This document shows positions 2,706 through 56,743 of a stretch of DNA of 64,000 nt, piece by piece. Under the pieces are notes generated by a model that did not search any database, had not been told where the DNA came from, and was given only the letters and a program-made list of their open reading frames with translations. This stretch comes from a virus. Lineage: Duplodnaviria; Caudoviricetes. Each line of letters starts with the position of its first letter. Position 1 is the stretch's first letter. The stretch lies in IMG/VR virus record IMGVR_UViG_3300033121_001571. The stretch is one strand, 5' to 3'. Both the position numbers and the translations under genes were made by a program.

Positions 2706-2944
2706 TTTGAATCTTTTATGACTCTTGCAACGTTGTCACTATTTAAGCTCTCTAAGTGTCCAAGAGAAACAAAACGATGCTTGTTGACAGTATTTTTGAC
2801 ACACACTAAAATATAAATTTCTGCGTACTCATCGTCAGGTTCTGAACTAGGTGATAAAAAAATACACAACTTAGAAAGACCGACGAAGTTACGAAGCTTC
2901 GGCGTGAAGACAACCAGTTGACCTGGTTTATATCGACTTTTCAC
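2702..2944 (-). CDS. xGD-family small protein
   Basis: KPGQLVV. Confidence 0.7.
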   Translation of the reverse strand: MKSRYKPGQLVVFTPKLRNFVGLSKLCIFLSPSSEPDDEYAEIYILVCVKNTVNKHRFVSLGHLESLNSDNVARVIKDSK

Positions 2945-3282
2945 TTTAACTTAGAAGAAACTTCTTTTAACTTCAAGACTTTGTCTCTCATCTCATCCAA
3001 GAGATCTAGGACAATCTGAAGACGGTTATCGCTCAGATCCTTAATTGAGTTAATTAACTCAATAAGTCTTCTTAGATCTGACGGAAGCGAATCTAATCTG
3101 ACATATCTTTCAACCTTGTCTTTTCCTCCCGGCGTCTCTGGGGGTGTGATGAACAAAATTCTATTGGGAAGTTCTGCATCGTTCATATACTCATCAACAG
3201 TCATAATAGTCGTAAGTCTAGATATTTTGTTTTCTGTGATTGGTTTGACACCTTCAAGAATTTTGCTTACATCAATACTCAT
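2941..3282 (-). CDS. hypothetical protein
   Basis: Coupled ORF with helical C-terminus. Confidence 0.7.
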   Translation of the reverse strand: MSIDVSKILEGVKPITENKISRLTTIMTVDEYMNDAELPNRILFITPPETPGGKDKVERYVRLDSLPSDLRRLIELINSIKDLSDNRLQIVLDLLDEMRDKVLKLKEVSSKLK

Positions 3283-3698
3283 TATTTTTTCCTTGTGTAA
3301 TCATTTAAGTGTGTTTGCAACATCTTGTTTAGCGTCTCGCACTCTTTTATGCAGTCTTCAACAGTTCCTTCAAATATTTCATATGTTTCAAATCCTGGCG
3401 CATCAAGCACGACGAGAGCACACGGTGATTCATCATCAGCTACGCTAGTCTTCATATCATGAGGACATACTTTAAAGGGCCTAAAAAGCTTTTTGGGTTC
3501 ATATAGACGAAGTTCTCCTAGTTCAGGTAACTTACCAAAACCGATCCAATCACCGATCATCATGACTCTATAACCGCTAGCTTCGTTAGCGAAATTTTGA
3601 GCTTCACCCTCAAGTTCAAGCGGAAAAACGCCTTTAGGAATTGAACGACCACTTGGGGTGTGAGAAAAAACAAAAATGTACTTCTTCGATTTAAACAT
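3282..3698 (-). CDS. hypothetical protein
   Basis: Coupled ORF. Confidence 0.7.
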   Translation of the reverse strand: MFKSKKYIFVFSHTPSGRSIPKGVFPLELEGEAQNFANEASGYRVMMIGDWIGFGKLPELGELRLYEPKKLFRPFKVCPHDMKTSVADDESPCALVVLDAPGFETYEIFEGTVEDCIKECETLNKMLQTHLNDYTRKK

Positions 3699-4056
3699 GT
3701 GGGTATCCTTTCTGTTCCCAAGTGTTAAATTGTTTCAAAGCTTTTTTGTAAAGCGGAAAGATAACGTCTATCTGTTTTACTAATCTTGAATGGCTTTTGG
3801 AGCTTTTTCCTGCGTTTCTGATTGTGCAAAGATCTCTGTGGAGAAAACTTAAACCAACGGTGATCTCTGAGATACCGTACTTAGCTCTGTTACTAAGTTT
3901 AGCATGAGTCTCTGAAGTCAGACGTTCTTCAGGAAGATGTTTCATTGCTTTTTGGAACTCCGTTGGATCGATTCCAACTGAAGGAAGTTTATCACACAGA
4001 TCAGTCAAATAATCTTTCCAAGTCTTCTTCACTTTCCCACCAAACCTTTCAACCAA
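3691..4056 (-). CDS. hypothetical protein
   Basis: Coupled ORF. Confidence 0.7.
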   Translation of the reverse strand: MVERFGGKVKKTWKDYLTDLCDKLPSVGIDPTEFQKAMKHLPEERLTSETHAKLSNRAKYGISEITVGLSFLHRDLCTIRNAGKSSKSHSRLVKQIDVIFPLYKKALKQFNTWEQKGYPHV

Positions 4057-6130: not shown

Positions 6131-6326
6131 GCTTACTCAAGGTGCTTAAGATAAGCAGAGTTTATGGGATAAGCGATTAAGTAATTTGTATCAAAAACGT
6201 AGTATGTGTTAACACAACTATCTTTTCTCAAGACAAGAACTATACGTTCTTCCCAACCTCGAGACACCATTAGACTTCCAACGTAGATTGTTTTTTGCAC
6301 TTGTGTTTAAAACTAAAAAATCTCGA

Positions 6327-6524
6327 TTAGATTATTGTTTTCAGAAGAGATCCAATACACATTGTTAGCCTAAACGATTCGAAATCTTTTATCTGAAGAA
6401 CATCGTATATGTCAAGATTTTTAGCAATTTTATCCTCTCCTAAGACAACATACAAGTACTTCTTTGGATAAGAACAATCATAAGGTATCACTAAATCTCC
6501 AGTATTAAATTTTTTCATTTCCAT
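6327..6524 (-). CDS. xGD-family small protein
   Basis: FNTGDLVI. Confidence 0.7.
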   Translation of the reverse strand: MEMKKFNTGDLVIPYDCSYPKKYLYVVLGEDKIAKNLDIYDVLQIKDFESFRLTMCIGSLLKTII

Positions 6525-8868: not shown

Positions 8869-9071
8869 TGCACAACAGCAACTGTCACTTTACACAAGTG
8901 ATGAAATGAATAGTAACGAACAGTGTAGGTCGGCAGGTGAATAGCTGCAACAACACTCTCAAGTATTTCTAATACTAACACCATGCCAGCGTTTTCTTCA
9001 CGTATACGTGAAGGTAAATCTCCATGCGAATAGTGGATGTATGCCAAATCTCCGGCTCTTATGTTTTTCAC
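8865..9071 (-). CDS. xGD-family small protein
   Basis: IRAGDLAY. Confidence 0.7.
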   Translation of the reverse strand: MKNIRAGDLAYIHYSHGDLPSRIREENAGMVLVLEILESVVAAIHLPTYTVRYYSFHHLCKVTVAVVQ

Positions 9072-9194
9072 ATTTCATTCTATCACTTAGAGAAAAACTT
9101 TTCACCCAAAGCGGTTTATGCTTTTTGCACTATCTCATTATCAAAATTAGAATTAGTCTGAATAGCGAACAATCACCAACTTGAAATTCATAGA

Positions 9195-9611
9195 TCAGAT
9201 CAAGGATCTTTCAATAAAGGCATTCAACGAAGGTACAAAGTGTAATTCTTGGATCTTCAAAAATTGAATAGACGGTATGTTACTTTTAACATATAGACTT
9301 CCATCCACAATACAAAGAATGTTAACATATTGCTTGTTCTCTGAAAGAATAAGCACGAGGTTTCTGACAAAGTAATCTTTTACAAAAGGTGGAATTAGTG
9401 TTGTCCACAAAACAATCTCGCCGGGTTCAATGATCCTAGAGTGTCTGTCTTTCACTTGTTCTTCAACTCTGCGTACGTTGTTGTCATGCCACTTTTCAGT
9501 GCAACTTGAAAATATAACTCTTCTATTCTCGTTATCACCATTTTCACTCTTCAAGTCTTTCAGTGTGCGAATCGATCTTAACCAGGCAGCTCCCATTTTG
9601 AATAAGCTCAA
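9195..9611 (-). CDS. xGD-family protein with N-terminal extension (start uncertain)
   Basis: IEPGEIVLWTTL, paralog of 9803..10027. Confidence 0.6.
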   Translation of the reverse strand: MSLFKMGAAWLRSIRTLKDLKSENGDNENRRVIFSSCTEKWHDNNVRRVEEQVKDRHSRIIEPGEIVLWTTLIPPFVKDYFVRNLVLILSENKQYVNILCIVDGSLYVKSNIPSIQFLKIQELHFVPSLNAFIERSLI

Positions 9612-25910: not shown

Positions 25911-26234
25911 TCACAGACACTGTTTGTTAACGAAGTCTCTGAAAGCGTTTTTCGACGCGAGGTTATGAACCTCGACAGCCTTGAAGAAGTACTGTTTCTT
26001 ATAGCTATCGTCGGTAAAAACGAGCTCCAACGGAGCACCGTCTTCCACCCAGTAGGGCCACGAAGAGATCTGATCTCTTGCTTCACGTATGAGAGAACTG
26101 TGACCCAAAACAAGAAACTCCTCGGCGAGCTCTTTGGCTTTCGCAAAAGAATCCACCACGATGAAATCTTGGTAGTGAGTTTCGTCCGAACCACAGTATG
26201 GACGAAACCCGTACGTGATCAAAGTGAGTTGCAT
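25911..26234 (-). CDS. hypothetical protein
   Basis: Clean ORF in minus-strand run. Confidence 0.7.
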   Translation of the reverse strand: MQLTLITYGFRPYCGSDETHYQDFIVVDSFAKAKELAEEFLVLGHSSLIREARDQISSWPYWVEDGAPLELVFTDDSYKKQYFFKAVEVHNLASKNAFRDFVNKQCL

Positions 26235-26457
26235 GTTTTCTTTTCACTCACAGAAGTGAGAGTCCACTCCAAAAAAGTAACGAGAGAACATGAGCAACGG
26301 CGGCCGACGGCCACTCACGGCATGATCAATGCAATTGCAGTGTACCGAGAGCAGGGTTCTGGTCCTGATCGATGACTACAACCATCCTCTCGTCACTTTT
26401 TTGGAGTGAACTGTTGTCTCTTGATAAGAGAGATACTACCTCAAGCAGAGAGACAGT

Positions 26458-27516: not shown

Positions 27517-28134
27517 CTAAAACACGTGCCGCCGGAACGTAAGAGAAACTCGAGTTCCAGTGCGTTCGGGTTGTTCCGGAATGCCGTGCTTGAACAGTGA
27601 ATCACACTGCCCATACATGATGAGCAAGTCACCATGGCCCAACTCTAGATCAATGGTTGGTTTGCTACGATCATACTTGTTCGTCACTGGATTATGAGGG
27701 TGAAGCTGAAAAGTTCTTGTGGCACCGAATGAAACAGCGACGATAGTGGGATCACTGCCCAATTGGGGAATGTATGTAGAGTCTCTGTGTGGATAGAGAC
27801 CAGAGCTTGGTTCGTATGAGTTGACAACAACGCAGTTTGGCGCCCAGCCCAGTTCTTCACTCACTAGTTGCTGTAGCGTAGTGAGTGTGGGGGTCATTGG
27901 ATGCATAGGCTTAGACTTACCCTTGTAAGTGTAAGTGATGCCGCGGTCACCAAAACGCGCCATAGCGTGACCACGATCGAAGCCCCGCCCAAATTTGAAG
28001 TGGCTGGCCCAACGCTGGTGTGTTTCTTGAACAACAGCGTAACCGTATTGGTCAGCTTCGACCTGAGTCAACCACGCAGGTACGTGAACAACTGCGTTCT
28101 GTACGATAACCTGTCCGCGCGGAGGAGTGTTCAT
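27517..28134 (-). CDS. alkB: AlkB-family 2OG-Fe(II) dioxygenase
   Basis: NCVVVNSY, HRD, VSFGATRTF, GDLLIM, KHGIP, RVSLTFR; leaderless promoter puts the start at 28134. Confidence 0.92.
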   Translation of the reverse strand: MNTPPRGQVIVQNAVVHVPAWLTQVEADQYGYAVVQETHQRWASHFKFGRGFDRGHAMARFGDRGITYTYKGKSKPMHPMTPTLTTLQQLVSEELGWAPNCVVVNSYEPSSGLYPHRDSTYIPQLGSDPTIVAVSFGATRTFQLHPHNPVTNKYDRSKPTIDLELGHGDLLIMYGQCDSLFKHGIPEQPERTGTRVSLTFRRHVF

Positions 28135-28207
28135 GAACAGAATGTAAGCTTTGCCTAAGAGCTGTTCACTACGACAGGACAAATCTTACGAGTAACCGAA
28201 AGATGAG

Positions 28208-28548
28208 GTTTTCCACAAAAGAACAGTGCCGAACTGATCCCTAGCGCTAGGGATTAGGTCTGCATGCAAGACAAAGAGTTACACAGCGTTCCAACTAACA
28301 CAGAGATTGCTACCACTCTGTTAGGGATCGAACCTACCTGTGTACTTCTTTTTCGGCACTGTTCTTTTGTGGAAAACTGTTCATTCCAGAAGAGTGATGA
28401 CAGAACCGTTATCTCTTGGCCGAGAGACAACGAGTGTGTACAAGCACAACTGTGCTTCAGTTTGGGCACCAAGCCGCCACCCGAAAAAGTGGCTCAGGGA
28501 TCGAACCTGATAACCTCAGCGACGATCTTCTGTCATCACTCTTCTGGA
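28208..28548 (-). ncRNA. Tandem pair of long-stem RNAs with permuted tRNA-like modules (YrlA/Y-RNA-like)
   Basis: 21-bp and 26-bp perfect stems, each enclosing a GGUUCGAUCCC T-arm, an acceptor-like hairpin and a GG D-loop-like segment; own promoter at 28600..28572. Confidence 0.7.
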
Positions 28549-28596
28549 GAGAACGTTTCTAACCTTAGTTGACCCTACACCCCTGGAGAGAACTGT

Positions 28597-29037
28597 TCAC
28601 TGCGGTGGGATGAGAAACCCGTCTTGGTTCGTGACCAAGAATCCATTTTTGCTTAAGGTGTTGCACGCATTCACGACTGCATTGGAATCGTGATGAACAA
28701 AAAGAGTCAAGATCACGTCACCCAGGAGTTTGTCGCCCCCAACCGAGGCGTCCATGATCTCTTGAGAGACTTTCACTTCGTCTTGCGAGGTGGGAAAAGG
28801 TCTCGTGCTCCTACCTTCACACAAAGCGCAGTCTAGATCACTGCAAGCGCTATCGTTCCACGTGTTGCACGTGAAACACGCGTATGAATCCCGAGCTGAC
28901 GAATAAATGCACTCTCGGTTGCACCGGGAACAGAACTTACCTCGCTGCCTGTTTTCTCTCTTCTTCTTTGTGCCACCAAAGATCGTGGTGACGTGAGAAG
29001 AGAAAACTTCTTGAAGCCTCTTGAACATTTCTTTCAT
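28597..29037 (-). CDS. Cys-rich (Zn-binding) hypothetical protein
   Basis: CSRC, CFTC, C..LDCALC. Confidence 0.75.
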   Translation of the reverse strand: MKEMFKRLQEVFSSHVTTIFGGTKKKRENRQRGKFCSRCNRECIYSSARDSYACFTCNTWNDSACSDLDCALCEGRSTRPFPTSQDEVKVSQEIMDASVGGDKLLGDVILTLFVHHDSNAVVNACNTLSKNGFLVTNQDGFLIPPQ

Positions 29038-29153
29038 GAACTTGAAGTCTCCAAGAAGATTGGCACCCCGCCTCTGAATCGAACAGAGAGCTCTGAGCTT
29101 AGAAGGCTCTGGCGCGGGTCCACCGCGCGGGGCAAGTACTGGATATGTATACC

Positions 29154-29426
29154 TCAGACGCGAGAGTTGTACTCTGCGTTGCGAGGCTGCTCCACGAAAT
29201 TGCTCGAGCGGAGACGCTCGAGCATGTTAGCAGCGTCCAAGAAAAACTTGAGTGCGTCGGTGAGCACGAGCGCAAACTGCTCAGTGTTCTTGTTGTTGCG
29301 AACAACGTTGAACCACAGTTCGTACTTTTCCACGTCGAAAGACACCGTCAGCGACGACACCCTGCTGTTGATCTCTGCGAGTTTGATCAACGGAAGTCGA
29401 CGACGAAACTCGATCACGTCTCCCAT
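29154..29426 (-). CDS. hypothetical protein
   Basis: SD AGGAG; MGDVIEF start. Confidence 0.7.
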   Translation of the reverse strand: MGDVIEFRRRLPLIKLAEINSRVSSLTVSFDVEKYELWFNVVRNNKNTEQFALVLTDALKFFLDAANMLERLRSSNFVEQPRNAEYNSRV

Positions 29427-31866: not shown

Positions 31867-32126
31867 ATGGAAAACACGGTATTCAAGTCCTTCATCGGCA
31901 AGAAGATCGAGCTCATCCGCACCACCGCCCTGGTGCGCTTGCACAAAATGGAACCCACGGTTCCATTTTGTGCAAGCGCACCGACCCTTTCACCAGTCTC
32001 AAGCCTGGTGATCGGGGAGTCGTCGAGTCTGTCGATGGCATCGGCACGGTCCACGTGAAGTGGGAGAACGGGTCGTGCTTGGGCCTCGTCGCCGACGCGG
32101 GTGATCGCTGGAAGCTGGCAGAGTGA
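31867..32126 (+). pseudogene. DUF4314-like gene disrupted by a 56-bp palindromic insertion
   Basis: Removing the insert restores MENTVFKSFIGKKIELIRTTDPFTSLKPGDRGVVESVDGIGTVHVKWENGSCLGLVADAGDRWKLAE. Confidence 0.85.
31927..31982. mobile_element. Small palindromic insertion element (MITE/REP-like)
   Basis: 24-bp perfect IR ggtgcgcttgcacaaaatggaacc-cac-ggttcc..., flanked by caccg repeats; related copy at 54.6 kb. Confidence 0.8.
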
Positions 32127-33606: not shown

Positions 33607-33770
33607 CTGTGTAACGTTGTTCCGAGTGTGATAGTGTTTATTCAAGAGGTACAGTTCAGTTTCAGAAAAGAGTCAGAGAGACTGGTCACATGCCAGTGAC
33701 ACTTCGCTGAAGAAGTTTCCGGAACTCTCTGACTCTTTTCTGAAACAGACACTCTGAGGAGCGCTGGCAC

Positions 33771-38946: not shown

Positions 38947-39027
38947 GAGTTGATCTCCAAAGCGGCTATAGCCGCACTCCTTACTCTCTTAATCTAACCT
39001 TTGAGAAGCAACCGTACACTCTTGCTC

Positions 39028-39141
39028 TTTCCCTCTTTCTCCCTCAGTGACACACAGATTAATCGTTGTGCTGAGACTTAAGTAGCTATGGTCAGCCGCT
39101 CAAAAGTTTTTCTGTGTGTCACTGAGGGAGAAAGAGGGAAA
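39028..39141. repeat. 31-bp perfect inverted repeat, 52-nt loop
   Basis: tttccctctttctccctcagtgacacacaga / tctgtgtgtcactgagggagaaagagggaaa. Confidence 0.9.
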
Positions 39142-39349
39142 GGCCCGGGACCTTCGCGCGCGTGTACGCGCGAGAGGTTCACCGAGCCTGTTTCTTCACC
39201 AGTGCTTGAGAACGAAGTGGATGATCACACCAGCGGCGAGGATGAACACCAGGAATCCCGCGATCAACTGAGCGATCGCGATGAACTTCAGGAGTTTCAA
39301 GTTTCCTCAAAGAAGCAGAGGGCGGGAACTCCCGCCCTCTGCGACCCTT

Positions 39350-56641: not shown

Positions 56642-56743
56642 TCTGTGCTTCGAGATCTCTTTGAGATTAATCTTAAGAACTCTGTTAGTGTAGCCACATC
56701 ACAGTGAGAAAAGATTAATCTCAAAGAGATCTCGAAGCACAGA
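56642..56743. repeat. 33-bp perfect inverted repeat, 36-nt loop, abutting a promoter
   Basis: tctgtgcttcgagatctctttgagattaatctt / aagattaatctcaaagagatctcgaagcacaga; GTGCAA-17-TACAAT follows at 56744. Confidence 0.9.

What the first reader, a model, noticed from the sequence alone, without database searches (positions are those of the whole stretch)
28208..28600. Tandem Y-RNA-like permuted tRNA mimics next to alkB
Seen (minus strand): a promoter at 28600 with no convincing ORF behind it, then two domains. Domain A has a 21-bp stem (28385-405/28528-48) enclosing T-arm UCAGG-UUCGAUC-CCUGA, a directly adjacent hairpin GCCACU..GGUGGC and GGC-UUGGU-GCC. Domain B has a 26-bp stem (28208-33/28352-77) enclosing UAGG-UUCGAUC-CCUA, hairpin ACAGAG..CUCUGU and GUUAGUUGGAAC. 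The order is T, acceptor-like, D, with no anticodon loop. Established: this permuted order on a long stem is the YrlA-class bacterial Y RNA architecture. No Ro60/TROVE gene is seen in the window. Inference: orphan phage tRNA mimics, possibly decoys for Ro60/Rsr or for tRNA-targeting defence enzymes.
Basis: partly seen in the sequence, partly recalled or inferred. Interest (0 to 1): 0.8.

Follow-up and report, generated by a model that had tools for sequence, protein, structure and literature searches.

The report
Tandem long-stem phage tRNA-mimic RNAs
A giant-phage intergenic region encodes two tandem, very stably folded RNA domains that each carry a rearranged, anticodon-less tRNA look-alike inside a perfect 21-26 bp stem; they fit no known RNA family and I found no relative elsewhere, so their role is still a guess.

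Summary
The region has perfect 26-bp and 21-bp closing stems and folds far better than shuffles (z = -11). Each domain holds a canonical T-arm, a directly stacked closed "acceptor" hairpin and a small GG-loop hairpin. A promoter-type motif that is enriched across the window lies upstream.

The T-acceptor-D order is the YrlA-type layout. However, no Rfam family matches (including Y RNA, tRNA and permuted tmRNA models), no Ro60/TROVE gene is in the window, and the YrlA 5' motif is absent.

This scan has repeatedly reported a "double tRNA-mimic RNA beside DUF7873", and earlier notes place one elsewhere in this same genome. I rebuilt that family from 80 viral loci. This RNA is not a member. It lacks the loop-encoded NCCA, U8/A9 and the full D-arm. 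It scores 7-8 bits against a model that gives held-out members 52-68 bits.

The alkB adjacency is not conserved in 24 alkB-relative loci. A third promoter-driven long-stem domain without a tRNA mimic lies 2 kb away. I found no homologue in any collection I could search.

My best guess (about 0.45) is a dimeric precursor cut by RNase III into two stable tRNA-elbow decoy or scaffold RNAs with an unknown partner.

The parts
28572..28599 (-). Promoter-type motif TGAAC-N17-TAGGGT. Its -35 overlaps the TGA stop of the upstream ORF. The expected transcription start is near 28565.
   Evidence: The motif class occurs 19 times in the window against 2.7 expected. The same motif precedes alkB (28168-28141) and domain C (26460-26433).
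28379..28554 (-). Domain A. The closing stem is 21 bp perfect (28528-28548 with 28385-28405) and extends to 27 nt at 93%. It encloses 122 nt.
28465..28510 (-). Domain A tRNA-like module: T-arm 28510-28494, 7-bp closed acceptor-like hairpin 28493-28476 (UUUC loop, two G.U pairs), and mini D-like hairpin GGC-UUGGU-GCC at 28475-28465.
   Evidence: Sequence read and constrained fold. The T-arm has G53-C61, U54, U55, C56, G57 and A58.
28408..28456 (-). Domain A extra hairpins, at 28456-28443 and 28431-28408.
28208..28377 (-). Domain B. The closing stem is 26 bp perfect (28352-28377 with 28208-28233) and encloses 118 nt.
28273..28351 (-). Domain B cloverleaf-like four-way junction. Helix P2 (28351-28338 with 28286-28273) encloses the T-arm (28336-28322), a 6-bp closed acceptor-like hairpin (28321-28300) and the D-like hairpin GUU-AGUUGG-AAC (28299-28288).
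   Evidence: After cutting in the acceptor loop and adding an artificial anticodon loop, ARAGORN calls it a tRNA at 80% of its threshold but not at the default.
28234..28272 (-). Domain B extra hairpins, at 28272-28258 and 28257-28234. The second is a perfect 20-nt palindrome core.
   Evidence: I9
26261..26412 (-). Domain C, a third promoter-driven long-stem domain. Its arms are 26 nt at 92% and its interior is 100 nt, with no T-arm. The 5' arm is about 84% identical to that of domain A over 19 nt.
   Evidence: (z = -6.6)
27517..28134 (-). AlkB-like 2OG-Fe(II) oxygenase gene (205 aa from the ATG) with its own promoter motif at 28168-28141. It is a neighbour, not a conserved partner.
28597..29037 (-). 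Upstream 146-aa Cys-rich ORFan. It matches no family. Its only relative is a 99%-identical protein on a 4.5-kb contig.

Best explanation
The locus is a non-coding transcription unit. One promoter near 28599 drives an RNA of about 360 nt made of two diverged paralogous domains.

Each domain is closed by a perfect duplex of 21-26 bp. That is long enough to be a double-strand cut site for host RNase III, in the way rRNAs are excised from their precursor. The likely products are therefore two stable RNAs of about 140 nt with paired ends.

Each RNA displays a circularly permuted, anticodon-less tRNA mimic. A canonical T-arm is stacked directly on a closed acceptor-like helix, and a small GG-loop hairpin is placed to dock on the T-loop. 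This reproduces the tRNA 'elbow' and the acceptor/T minihelix.

The RNA probably works in trans as a decoy or scaffold for a protein or ribozyme that recognises that part of tRNA. Candidates are RNase P, the CCA-adding enzyme, T-loop modification enzymes, a Ro60-like ring, or a tRNA-targeting defence nuclease.

What is shown: the sequence elements, the fold stability, the promoter-motif enrichment, the paralogy of the two domains, and non-membership in the Rfam families and the DUF7873-linked family. What is inferred: transcription, RNase III excision, elbow formation, and the decoy or scaffold role.
For: The fold has z = -11.2. The perfect arms are confirmed. The promoter motif is enriched 19 against 2.7 expected and sits directly upstream. 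No coding signal was found.

The two domains share one plan (closing stem, T-arm, acceptor hairpin, D-like hairpin, two further hairpins) at only 51% aligned identity. In RNAalifold, 16 of 39 predicted pairs changed on both sides. Domain A is found at exactly its own bounds by a model built from domain B alone (16.5 bits, E = 0.07).

The one long identical block between the two domains is the 13-nt T-arm core (P about 0.007 by shuffling identity flags; D4, 111). The T-loops carry the tRNA-invariant residues, and the G.U pairs in the acceptor hairpin are strand-specific. Un-permuted module B is tRNA-like to ARAGORN at a relaxed threshold.

Precedent: YrlA RNAs have the same T-AS-D order and are substrates of tRNA enzymes. 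The M. smegmatis YrlA, with a 7-bp acceptor stem, is cut by RNase P and receives CCA (PMC4201824). Domain A also has a 7-bp acceptor stem on a 5-bp T-stem.
Against: There are no transcript data. No homologue was found anywhere, so there is no cross-species covariation.

The plus strand folds as well as the minus strand. In domain A the T-arm is not in the MFE. The D-like hairpins are only 3 bp and lack the U8/N9 linker, so elbow formation is unproven. ARAGORN rejects the un-permuted module at its default threshold.

The closing stems contain no G.U pairs at all. Long perfect palindromes are common in this window, which also fits a DNA-level or terminator/processing role. A sibling domain (C) has the same kind of stem without any tRNA mimic. 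No candidate partner gene is adjacent.
Confidence: 0.45

Rival explanations
1. The region is a cis-acting structured leader or processing module rather than a trans-acting RNA. The long stems (RNase III sites) and the tRNA-like minihelices (RNase P sites) punctuate read-through transcripts and control the stability or expression of the downstream alkB message. Domain C would do the same for its downstream gene.
For: Domain C has the same kind of stem and sits between a promoter motif and the next gene, with no second promoter motif between them. No intrinsic terminator follows domain B, so transcription should run into alkB. The genes here appear to be leaderless, with start codons at the expected +1 (alkB motif at 28168-28141 and ATG at 28134).
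Against: alkB has its own promoter motif placed for a leaderless start, so it does not need the upstream unit. alkB relatives have no such leader. The hypothesis does not explain why two complete T-AS-D modules with an identical 13-nt T-arm core are maintained.
Confidence: 0.18
2. They are true Y RNAs of the YrlA kind. They would be bound by a Ro60/Rsr ring encoded elsewhere in the phage or by the host, tethering it to an exonuclease.
For: The layout is the same permuted T-AS-D layout on a stem formed by the RNA's ends. Tandem Y RNAs and phage-borne YrlA are known (PMC4201824). Earlier scan notes report RNA-repair genes in this genome; I did not check that.
Against: No Rfam Y RNA or YrlA hit was found even at E <= 10. 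No TROVE gene is in the window. There is no GNCGAAN0-1G motif. The stems are perfect duplexes without the bulged Ro-binding helix. The D-arm is not of the YrlA/tRNA type.
Confidence: 0.12
3. These are DNA-level elements. They would be palindromic or MITE-like cassettes, or recombination joints, that captured tRNA-gene fragments. The RNA fold would be a by-product.
For: The stems have 47 Watson-Crick pairs and no G.U pair. Both strands fold equally. The window holds 14 long inverted repeats, several of them perfect, and the arm sequences of A, C and the 33656-33749 hairpin resemble one another. Unit sizes of about 150-175 bp are typical of MITEs.
Against: The arm sequences occur nowhere else in the 64-kb window, so they are not a dispersed repeat. 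The interior helices have strand-specific G.U pairs. The T-loops face the promoter's direction. Five interior helices are kept in both copies while their sequences differ, which is the signature of selection on RNA.
Confidence: 0.13
4. It is a decaying, non-functional paralogue of the DUF7873-linked double tRNA-mimic RNA that earlier notes place about 66 kb further along this genome.
For: It has two permuted tRNA-like modules whose T-arms are 173 nt apart. That lies inside the 145-185 nt spacing seen downstream of DUF7873 genes.
Against: It fails every family-specific feature. It keeps perfect stems, its own promoter motif and intact T-loops, which is not what decay looks like.
Confidence: 0.07

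Closest known systems
YrlA-class bacterial and phage Y RNAs bound by Ro60/Rsr (Chen et al. 2014, PMC4201824)
   Same: Both have a circularly permuted tRNA-like domain in the order T-arm, closed acceptor-like stem-loop, D-like stem-loop. In both, the domain is carried on a stem formed by the RNA's two ends, and there is no anticodon loop. Tandem copies occur in both. Both have 7-bp-acceptor versions; M. smegmatis YrlA is an RNase P substrate.
   Different: This RNA has no Rfam match, no adjacent Ro60/TROVE gene and no GNCGAAN0-1G motif. Its closing stems are perfect 21-26 bp duplexes rather than a short bulged Ro-binding helix. Its D hairpin is only 3 bp with no U8/N9. Each domain has two extra hairpins.
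DUF7873 (PF25283)-linked double tRNA-mimic RNA. This is a family repeatedly reported by this scan; I found no paper that names it.
   Same: Both occur in phages and carry two permuted tRNA-like modules. The T-arms are about 150-185 nt apart (173 here). Total size is about 350-450 nt. Earlier notes say the same genome holds one.
   Different: In family module 1, the acceptor-hairpin loop starts with an invariant N-CCA. A spacer follows, then the acceptor 5' strand, then U8-A9 and a full GCUCAGUGGUAGAGC-type D-arm. None of these features is present here. Model R1 gives 7-8 bits here against 52-68 bits for held-out members. No DUF7873 gene is adjacent. In the one family member I folded with both modules (L172), a single outer stem closes the pair; here each domain has its own perfect stem.
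rRNA and phage early-transcript processing stems cut by RNase III
   Same: In both, a perfect or near-perfect duplex of more than 20 bp, formed by the sequences flanking a structured RNA, brackets the piece to be released.
   Different: Cleavage here is only inferred. The enclosed RNA is a tRNA mimic of about 120 nt, not an rRNA or an mRNA.
Circularly permuted (two-piece) tmRNA genes (Rfam RF04321)
   Same: In both, the gene order is a T-arm followed by the acceptor 3' strand, then an intervening loop, then the acceptor 5' strand.
   Different: ARAGORN and Rfam find no match. There is no CCA, no G3:U70, no tag reading frame and no pseudoknots.

Membership tests
YrlA / bacterial Y RNA | Permuted tRNA-like domain: T stem-loop, acceptor-like stem-loop, D stem-loop, in that order | tested here: met
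   Both domains have it. The D element is reduced to a 3-bp stem with a GG loop.
YrlA / bacterial Y RNA | Match to the curated covariance model (near-invariant T and D stem-loops) | tested here: not met
   cmscan of all 4227 Rfam 15 families found nothing at gathering score. At E <= 10 on 27900-29300 it gave only four chance-level matches (three C/D-box snoRNA models and rpfG).
YrlA / bacterial Y RNA | Encoded next to a Ro60/Rsr (TROVE) gene | tested here: not met
   Flanking ORFs and 11 of the window's 13 ORFs of 200 aa or more were scanned against Pfam with no TROVE hit. The rest of the genome could not be searched.
YrlA / bacterial Y RNA | GNCGAAN0-1G motif near the 5' end (Rsr recognition) | tested here: not met
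   Domain A has none. Domain B has GCCGAA at the top of its stem, followed by AAAG, so no G lies within one nucleotide (motif definition).
YrlA / bacterial Y RNA | Bound by Ro60/Rsr; carries tRNA modifications | not testable with these tools
   Needs immunoprecipitation and modification mapping.
DUF7873-linked double tRNA-mimic RNA | Lies directly downstream of a DUF7873 (PF25283) gene | tested here: not met
   The upstream ORF is a 146-aa ORFan with no Pfam hit. None of the large ORFs scanned is DUF7873.
DUF7873-linked double tRNA-mimic RNA | Module 1: acceptor hairpin whose loop begins with N-CCA, then U8-A9 and a canonical 4-bp D-arm | tested here: not met
   Alignment A3 of 44 modules shows an invariant CCA and a UAGCUCAGUGGUAGAGC-type D-arm. 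Here the loops are UUUC and UGGUAGCAAU, and the D hairpins are 3 bp with no linker.
DUF7873-linked double tRNA-mimic RNA | Significant score with a covariance model of the family module | tested here: not met
   Model R1 gives 8.3 and 7.4 bits, T-arm only, E about 1-2. The 12 held-out DUF7873 loci give 52-68 bits.
DUF7873-linked double tRNA-mimic RNA | Two T-arms about 150-185 nt apart in one RNA | tested here: met
   The spacing here is 173 nt (D4). Family spacings are listed.
tRNA / permuted tmRNA | Detected by ARAGORN or by the Rfam tRNA and tmRNA models | tested here: not met
   The un-permuted module B passes ARAGORN only at 80% of its threshold.
MITE-like palindromic element | Several dispersed copies that share terminal inverted repeats | tested here: not met
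   Each arm sequence, allowing 3 mismatches, occurs only at its own domain in the 64-kb window. Related but diverged arms exist at domain C. Target-site duplications and the rest of the genome were not examined.

The most novel reading that the evidence does not exclude
This is a third class of phage tRNA-elbow mimic RNA, independent of both Ro60 and DUF7873. A dimeric precursor would be cut at perfect RNase III stems into two closed-acceptor, anticodon-less mini-tRNAs. These would titrate or redirect a host factor that reads the tRNA elbow, for example a tRNA-targeting anti-phage nuclease or RNase P. The modules would sit on a reusable 'long-stem cassette' chassis that the phage also uses for other structured RNAs (domain C).
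Probability: 0.2. Interest if true: 0.75.

Novelty: new variant of a known kind. Interest (0 to 1): 0.5.

Why it matters
Permuted tRNA mimics are so far understood only as Ro60 partners (YrlA). This scan has separately turned up a widespread DUF7873-linked type.

A third type would be informative. It would have no partner gene beside it, closed acceptor stems, a minimal D element and built-in RNase III stems. It would show that phages build tRNA-elbow mimics repeatedly and in modular form. It would also offer a small, easily synthesised RNA for pulling down whatever host or phage factor reads the tRNA elbow during infection. Such factors may include tRNA-directed defence systems, given the large tRNA set and RNA-repair genes that earlier notes report for this genome.

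If the region turns out to be only a processing leader, it is still a clear example of tRNA-like punctuation in a phage that uses leaderless mRNAs.

Tried and rejected
1. Homologue searches for the RNA all came back empty.
- blastn of the RNA, and megablast of 20 kb around it, against 50,697 phage records gave no match.
- Two-T-arm patterns in IMG/VR returned more than 120 and then 18 stretches. All were tRNA pairs or coding repeats.
- A stricter pattern in JGI metagenomes gave 0 hits.
- A single-sequence model of domain B (R2) found nothing in 43 whole viral records, about 7 Mb.

2. Synteny through neighbouring genes failed.
- AlkB relatives were fetched from IMG/VR, JGI and GTDB. No T-arm module was found beside the alkB relatives from IMG/VR and JGI; the inverted-repeat and ORF checks covered L129, L130 and L139 only. 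The GTDB locus L149 was not examined.
- The upstream 146-aa protein has a single, 99%-identical relative.

I therefore could not read the contigs that carry the identical or near-identical AlkB, or the 4.5-kb contig that holds both neighbours.

4. DUF7873 route.
- No paper names the family.
- I found its accession, PF25283, by stepping through neighbouring Pfam accessions.
- It is absent from 401 small genomes of the phylum of one MAG and present in 1 of 47 viral records.
- From that seed I obtained 373+ proteins and 80 loci. The outcome was rejection of membership.

5. Other checks.
- A look-alike group of T-arm plus tetraloop-hairpin modules in phage tRNA arrays (L089, L047, L067, L104, L091, L030, L012) turned out to be a different conserved RNA with its own flanking consensus.
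- The DUF2828/DUF7788 protein beside tandem modules in L007 showed no sequence link to any solved structure, including Ro60.
- The model-forced alignment of domain A to domain B mis-placed the acceptor hairpin, so I did not use it for pair counts.

Full report
**What is there**

Read on the minus strand, the 414-nt gap between a 146-aa ORFan (28597-29037) and an AlkB-type oxygenase gene (27517-28134; Pfam 2OG-FeII_Oxy_2, E = 5.6e-24) holds two tandem domains.

One arm pair, 28208-28233/28352-28377, is 26 nt and 100% complementary with 118 nt between the arms. The other, 28385-28405/28528-28548, is perfect and extends to 27 nt at 93%, with 122 nt between the arms.

The RNA 28195-28560 folds at -170.9 kcal/mol against -105.7 +/- 5.8 for shuffles (z = -11.2). 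The opposite strand folds as well (z = -12.7), because the stems are pure Watson-Crick. The strand call therefore rests on three things: the orientation of the two UUCGAUC T-loops, the G.U pairs in interior helices, and the promoter.

**Promoter and coding potential**

The motif TGAAC-N17-TAnnnT occurs 19 times in the window against 2.7 expected (0 of 100 shuffles reach 19). One copy sits at 28599-28572, directly upstream of domain A. Another (28168-28141) is placed for a leaderless alkB start. Domain B has no -10 of its own, so A and B are probably one transcript. No terminator-like site follows B. The ORFs that overlap the region hit nothing in Pfam or PHROGs.

**Anatomy**

Domain A:
- a 5-bp T-arm with the tRNA-invariant G53-C61, U54, U55, C56, G57 and A58;
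- a 7-bp hairpin stacked on it with no linker (UUUC loop, two G.U pairs);
- then GGC-UUGGU-GCC and two further hairpins.

Domain B:
- the same order of elements;
- the three hairpins are additionally enclosed by a 7+5-bp helix, which gives a cloverleaf-like four-way junction;
- the D-like loop reads AGUUGG, matching tRNA positions A14 R15 Y16 Y17 G18 G19.

When module B is cut in the acceptor loop and given an artificial anticodon loop, ARAGORN calls it a tRNA at 80% of its threshold but not at the default. In domain A the T-arm fold is 3.4 kcal/mol above the MFE.

**The two domains are diverged paralogues**

They share 51% aligned identity. The single long identical block is the 13-nt T-arm core (P about 0.007). 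RNAalifold finds a common structure in which 16 of 39 pairs differ on both sides. A model built from domain B alone finds domain A at exactly its own bounds, though weakly (16.5 bits, E = 0.07). This within-genome comparison is the only covariation evidence available.

**A wider local family**

A scan for long inverted repeats found a third unit at 26261-26412. It has 26-nt arms at 92% and a 100-nt interior (z = -6.6). It lies behind another copy of the promoter motif. Its 5' arm is about 84% identical to that of domain A over 19 nt. It has no T-arm.

The window holds 14 long inverted repeats in all, several of them perfect. The long stem is therefore a reusable chassis in this phage, and the tRNA mimic is cargo in two of the units.

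**Comparison with known families**

Rfam 15 gives nothing at gathering score. At E <= 10 it gives only four chance-level matches (three C/D-box snoRNA models and rpfG). No Y RNA, tRNA or permuted tmRNA model matches.

Chen et al. 2014 define YrlA by four features: adjacency to Ro60/Rsr, a GNCGAAN0-1G 5' motif, near-invariant T and D stem-loops, and an acceptor-like stem-loop between them. Only the last, architectural feature is met here.

Earlier notes of this scan describe a double tRNA-mimic RNA beside DUF7873 in at least 45 genomes, including this one, about 66 kb past the window. I treated that as a lead and tested it as follows.
- I identified DUF7873 as PF25283 and found a seed in an IMG/VR contig.
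- From the seed I collected 373+ homologues and 80 viral loci.
- Nearly all of these loci have a T-arm 115-250 nt after the stop codon. About a third have two T-arms, though 32 of the T-arms counted lie in ordinary tRNA genes.
- Module 1 of that family is a near-complete permuted tRNA. Its acceptor loop begins with an invariant N-CCA. The 5' strand is followed by U8-A9 and a canonical D-arm.
- A covariance model of 44 such modules (R1) scores 12 held-out loci at 52-68 bits. It scores the two modules here at 8.3 and 7.4 bits, T-arm only.

This RNA is therefore not a member of that family, although the 173-nt spacing of its T-arms is like the family's.

**Context is not conserved**

The alkB relatives fetched from IMG/VR and JGI (41-75% identity) show no T-arm module in the flanks held. 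The three loci checked have no long inverted repeats beside alkB. In the closest-GC relative (L130), an ORF abuts alkB. The upstream ORFan has only one relative, which is 99% identical. No homologue of the RNA was found in INPHARED, IMG/VR, JGI metagenomes or 43 whole viral records.

**Reading**

The most economical explanation (about 0.45) has four steps. One promoter makes a dimeric precursor. RNase III cuts the two perfect duplexes. This leaves two end-paired RNAs of about 140 nt, each presenting a tRNA elbow and acceptor/T minihelix without an anticodon or a free CCA end. These act in trans as a decoy or scaffold for something that reads that part of tRNA. The partner is unknown and is not encoded next door.

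The rivals are a cis-acting processing leader (0.18), a true Ro60-bound Y RNA (0.12), DNA-level palindromic cassettes (0.13) and a decayed DUF7873-type paralogue (0.07).

**Verdict**

This is a new variant of the known permuted tRNA-mimic kind. It is currently an orphan seen in one phage lineage, so I rate its interest as moderate.

Noticed in passing
window 26261-26412 (-), promoter motif 26460-26433: A third promoter-driven structured unit. It has a 26-nt near-perfect closing stem and a 100-nt interior (z = -6.6). Its arm resembles that of domain A, but it has no T-arm. It may be a separate ncRNA or the leader of the gene at 25911-26234.
   Followed up: partly
window 29061-29138 (-): ARAGORN calls a tRNA-Arg(UCU) here, with an encoded GCCA end and a very small D-arm. 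The Rfam tRNA model does not report it, even at E <= 10. It may be an aberrant tRNA or another tRNA-like RNA.
   Followed up: partly
window 1-64000: Base composition is mosaic. It is about 35-37% GC up to 10 kb, rising through 10-14 kb, about 50-60% GC from 14 to 42 kb, and about 36-48% after that. The high-GC block holds the small-gene cassettes and all the long-stem units.
   Followed up: no
window 33656-33749, 31932-31982, 39027-39142, 56642-56743: Further long, mostly perfect inverted repeats (24-45 nt arms). The arms at 33656-33749 resemble the closing stems of domains A, B and C, and a TGAAC box lies just downstream.
   Followed up: partly
L151-L230 (IMG/VR), about 115-250 nt downstream of DUF7873 genes: Module 1 of the DUF7873-linked RNA encodes an invariant N-CCA straight after the acceptor 3' strand, inside the hairpin loop. 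A spacer follows, often ending UAUG, then the acceptor 5' strand. This is the gene layout of a permuted tRNA or two-piece tmRNA. It suggests processing to a free, possibly chargeable CCA end.
   Followed up: partly
L007 2088-3542 (-) with modules at 3736 and 3621; L091 6607-8022 (-): Phage proteins of 471-484 aa with DUF2828 + DUF7788 domains. The L007 protein lies directly beside tandem permuted tRNA-like modules inside a tRNA array; in L091 the nearest module is about 1.1 kb away. They may be another protein-RNA pairing. The protein has no sequence link to any solved structure.
   Followed up: partly
L089 ~1600-1820, L047 ~3250-3465, L067 ~860-1075, L104 ~6200-6420, L091 ~9000-9220, L030 ~1045-1265, L012 ~2810-3030: A conserved RNA of about 200 nt in phage tRNA arrays. 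It contains a T-arm plus a tetraloop-closed hairpin, with shared flanking blocks (...GUCAGCAAG..., ...UUCUUCGAAGG..., ...CUGGAC...). I did not identify it.
   Followed up: no
L096 1105-1159 (-): A provirus tRNA array holds a permuted module that scores 56.6 bits with the DUF7873-family model. No DUF7873 gene was found in that 108-kb record.
   Followed up: no
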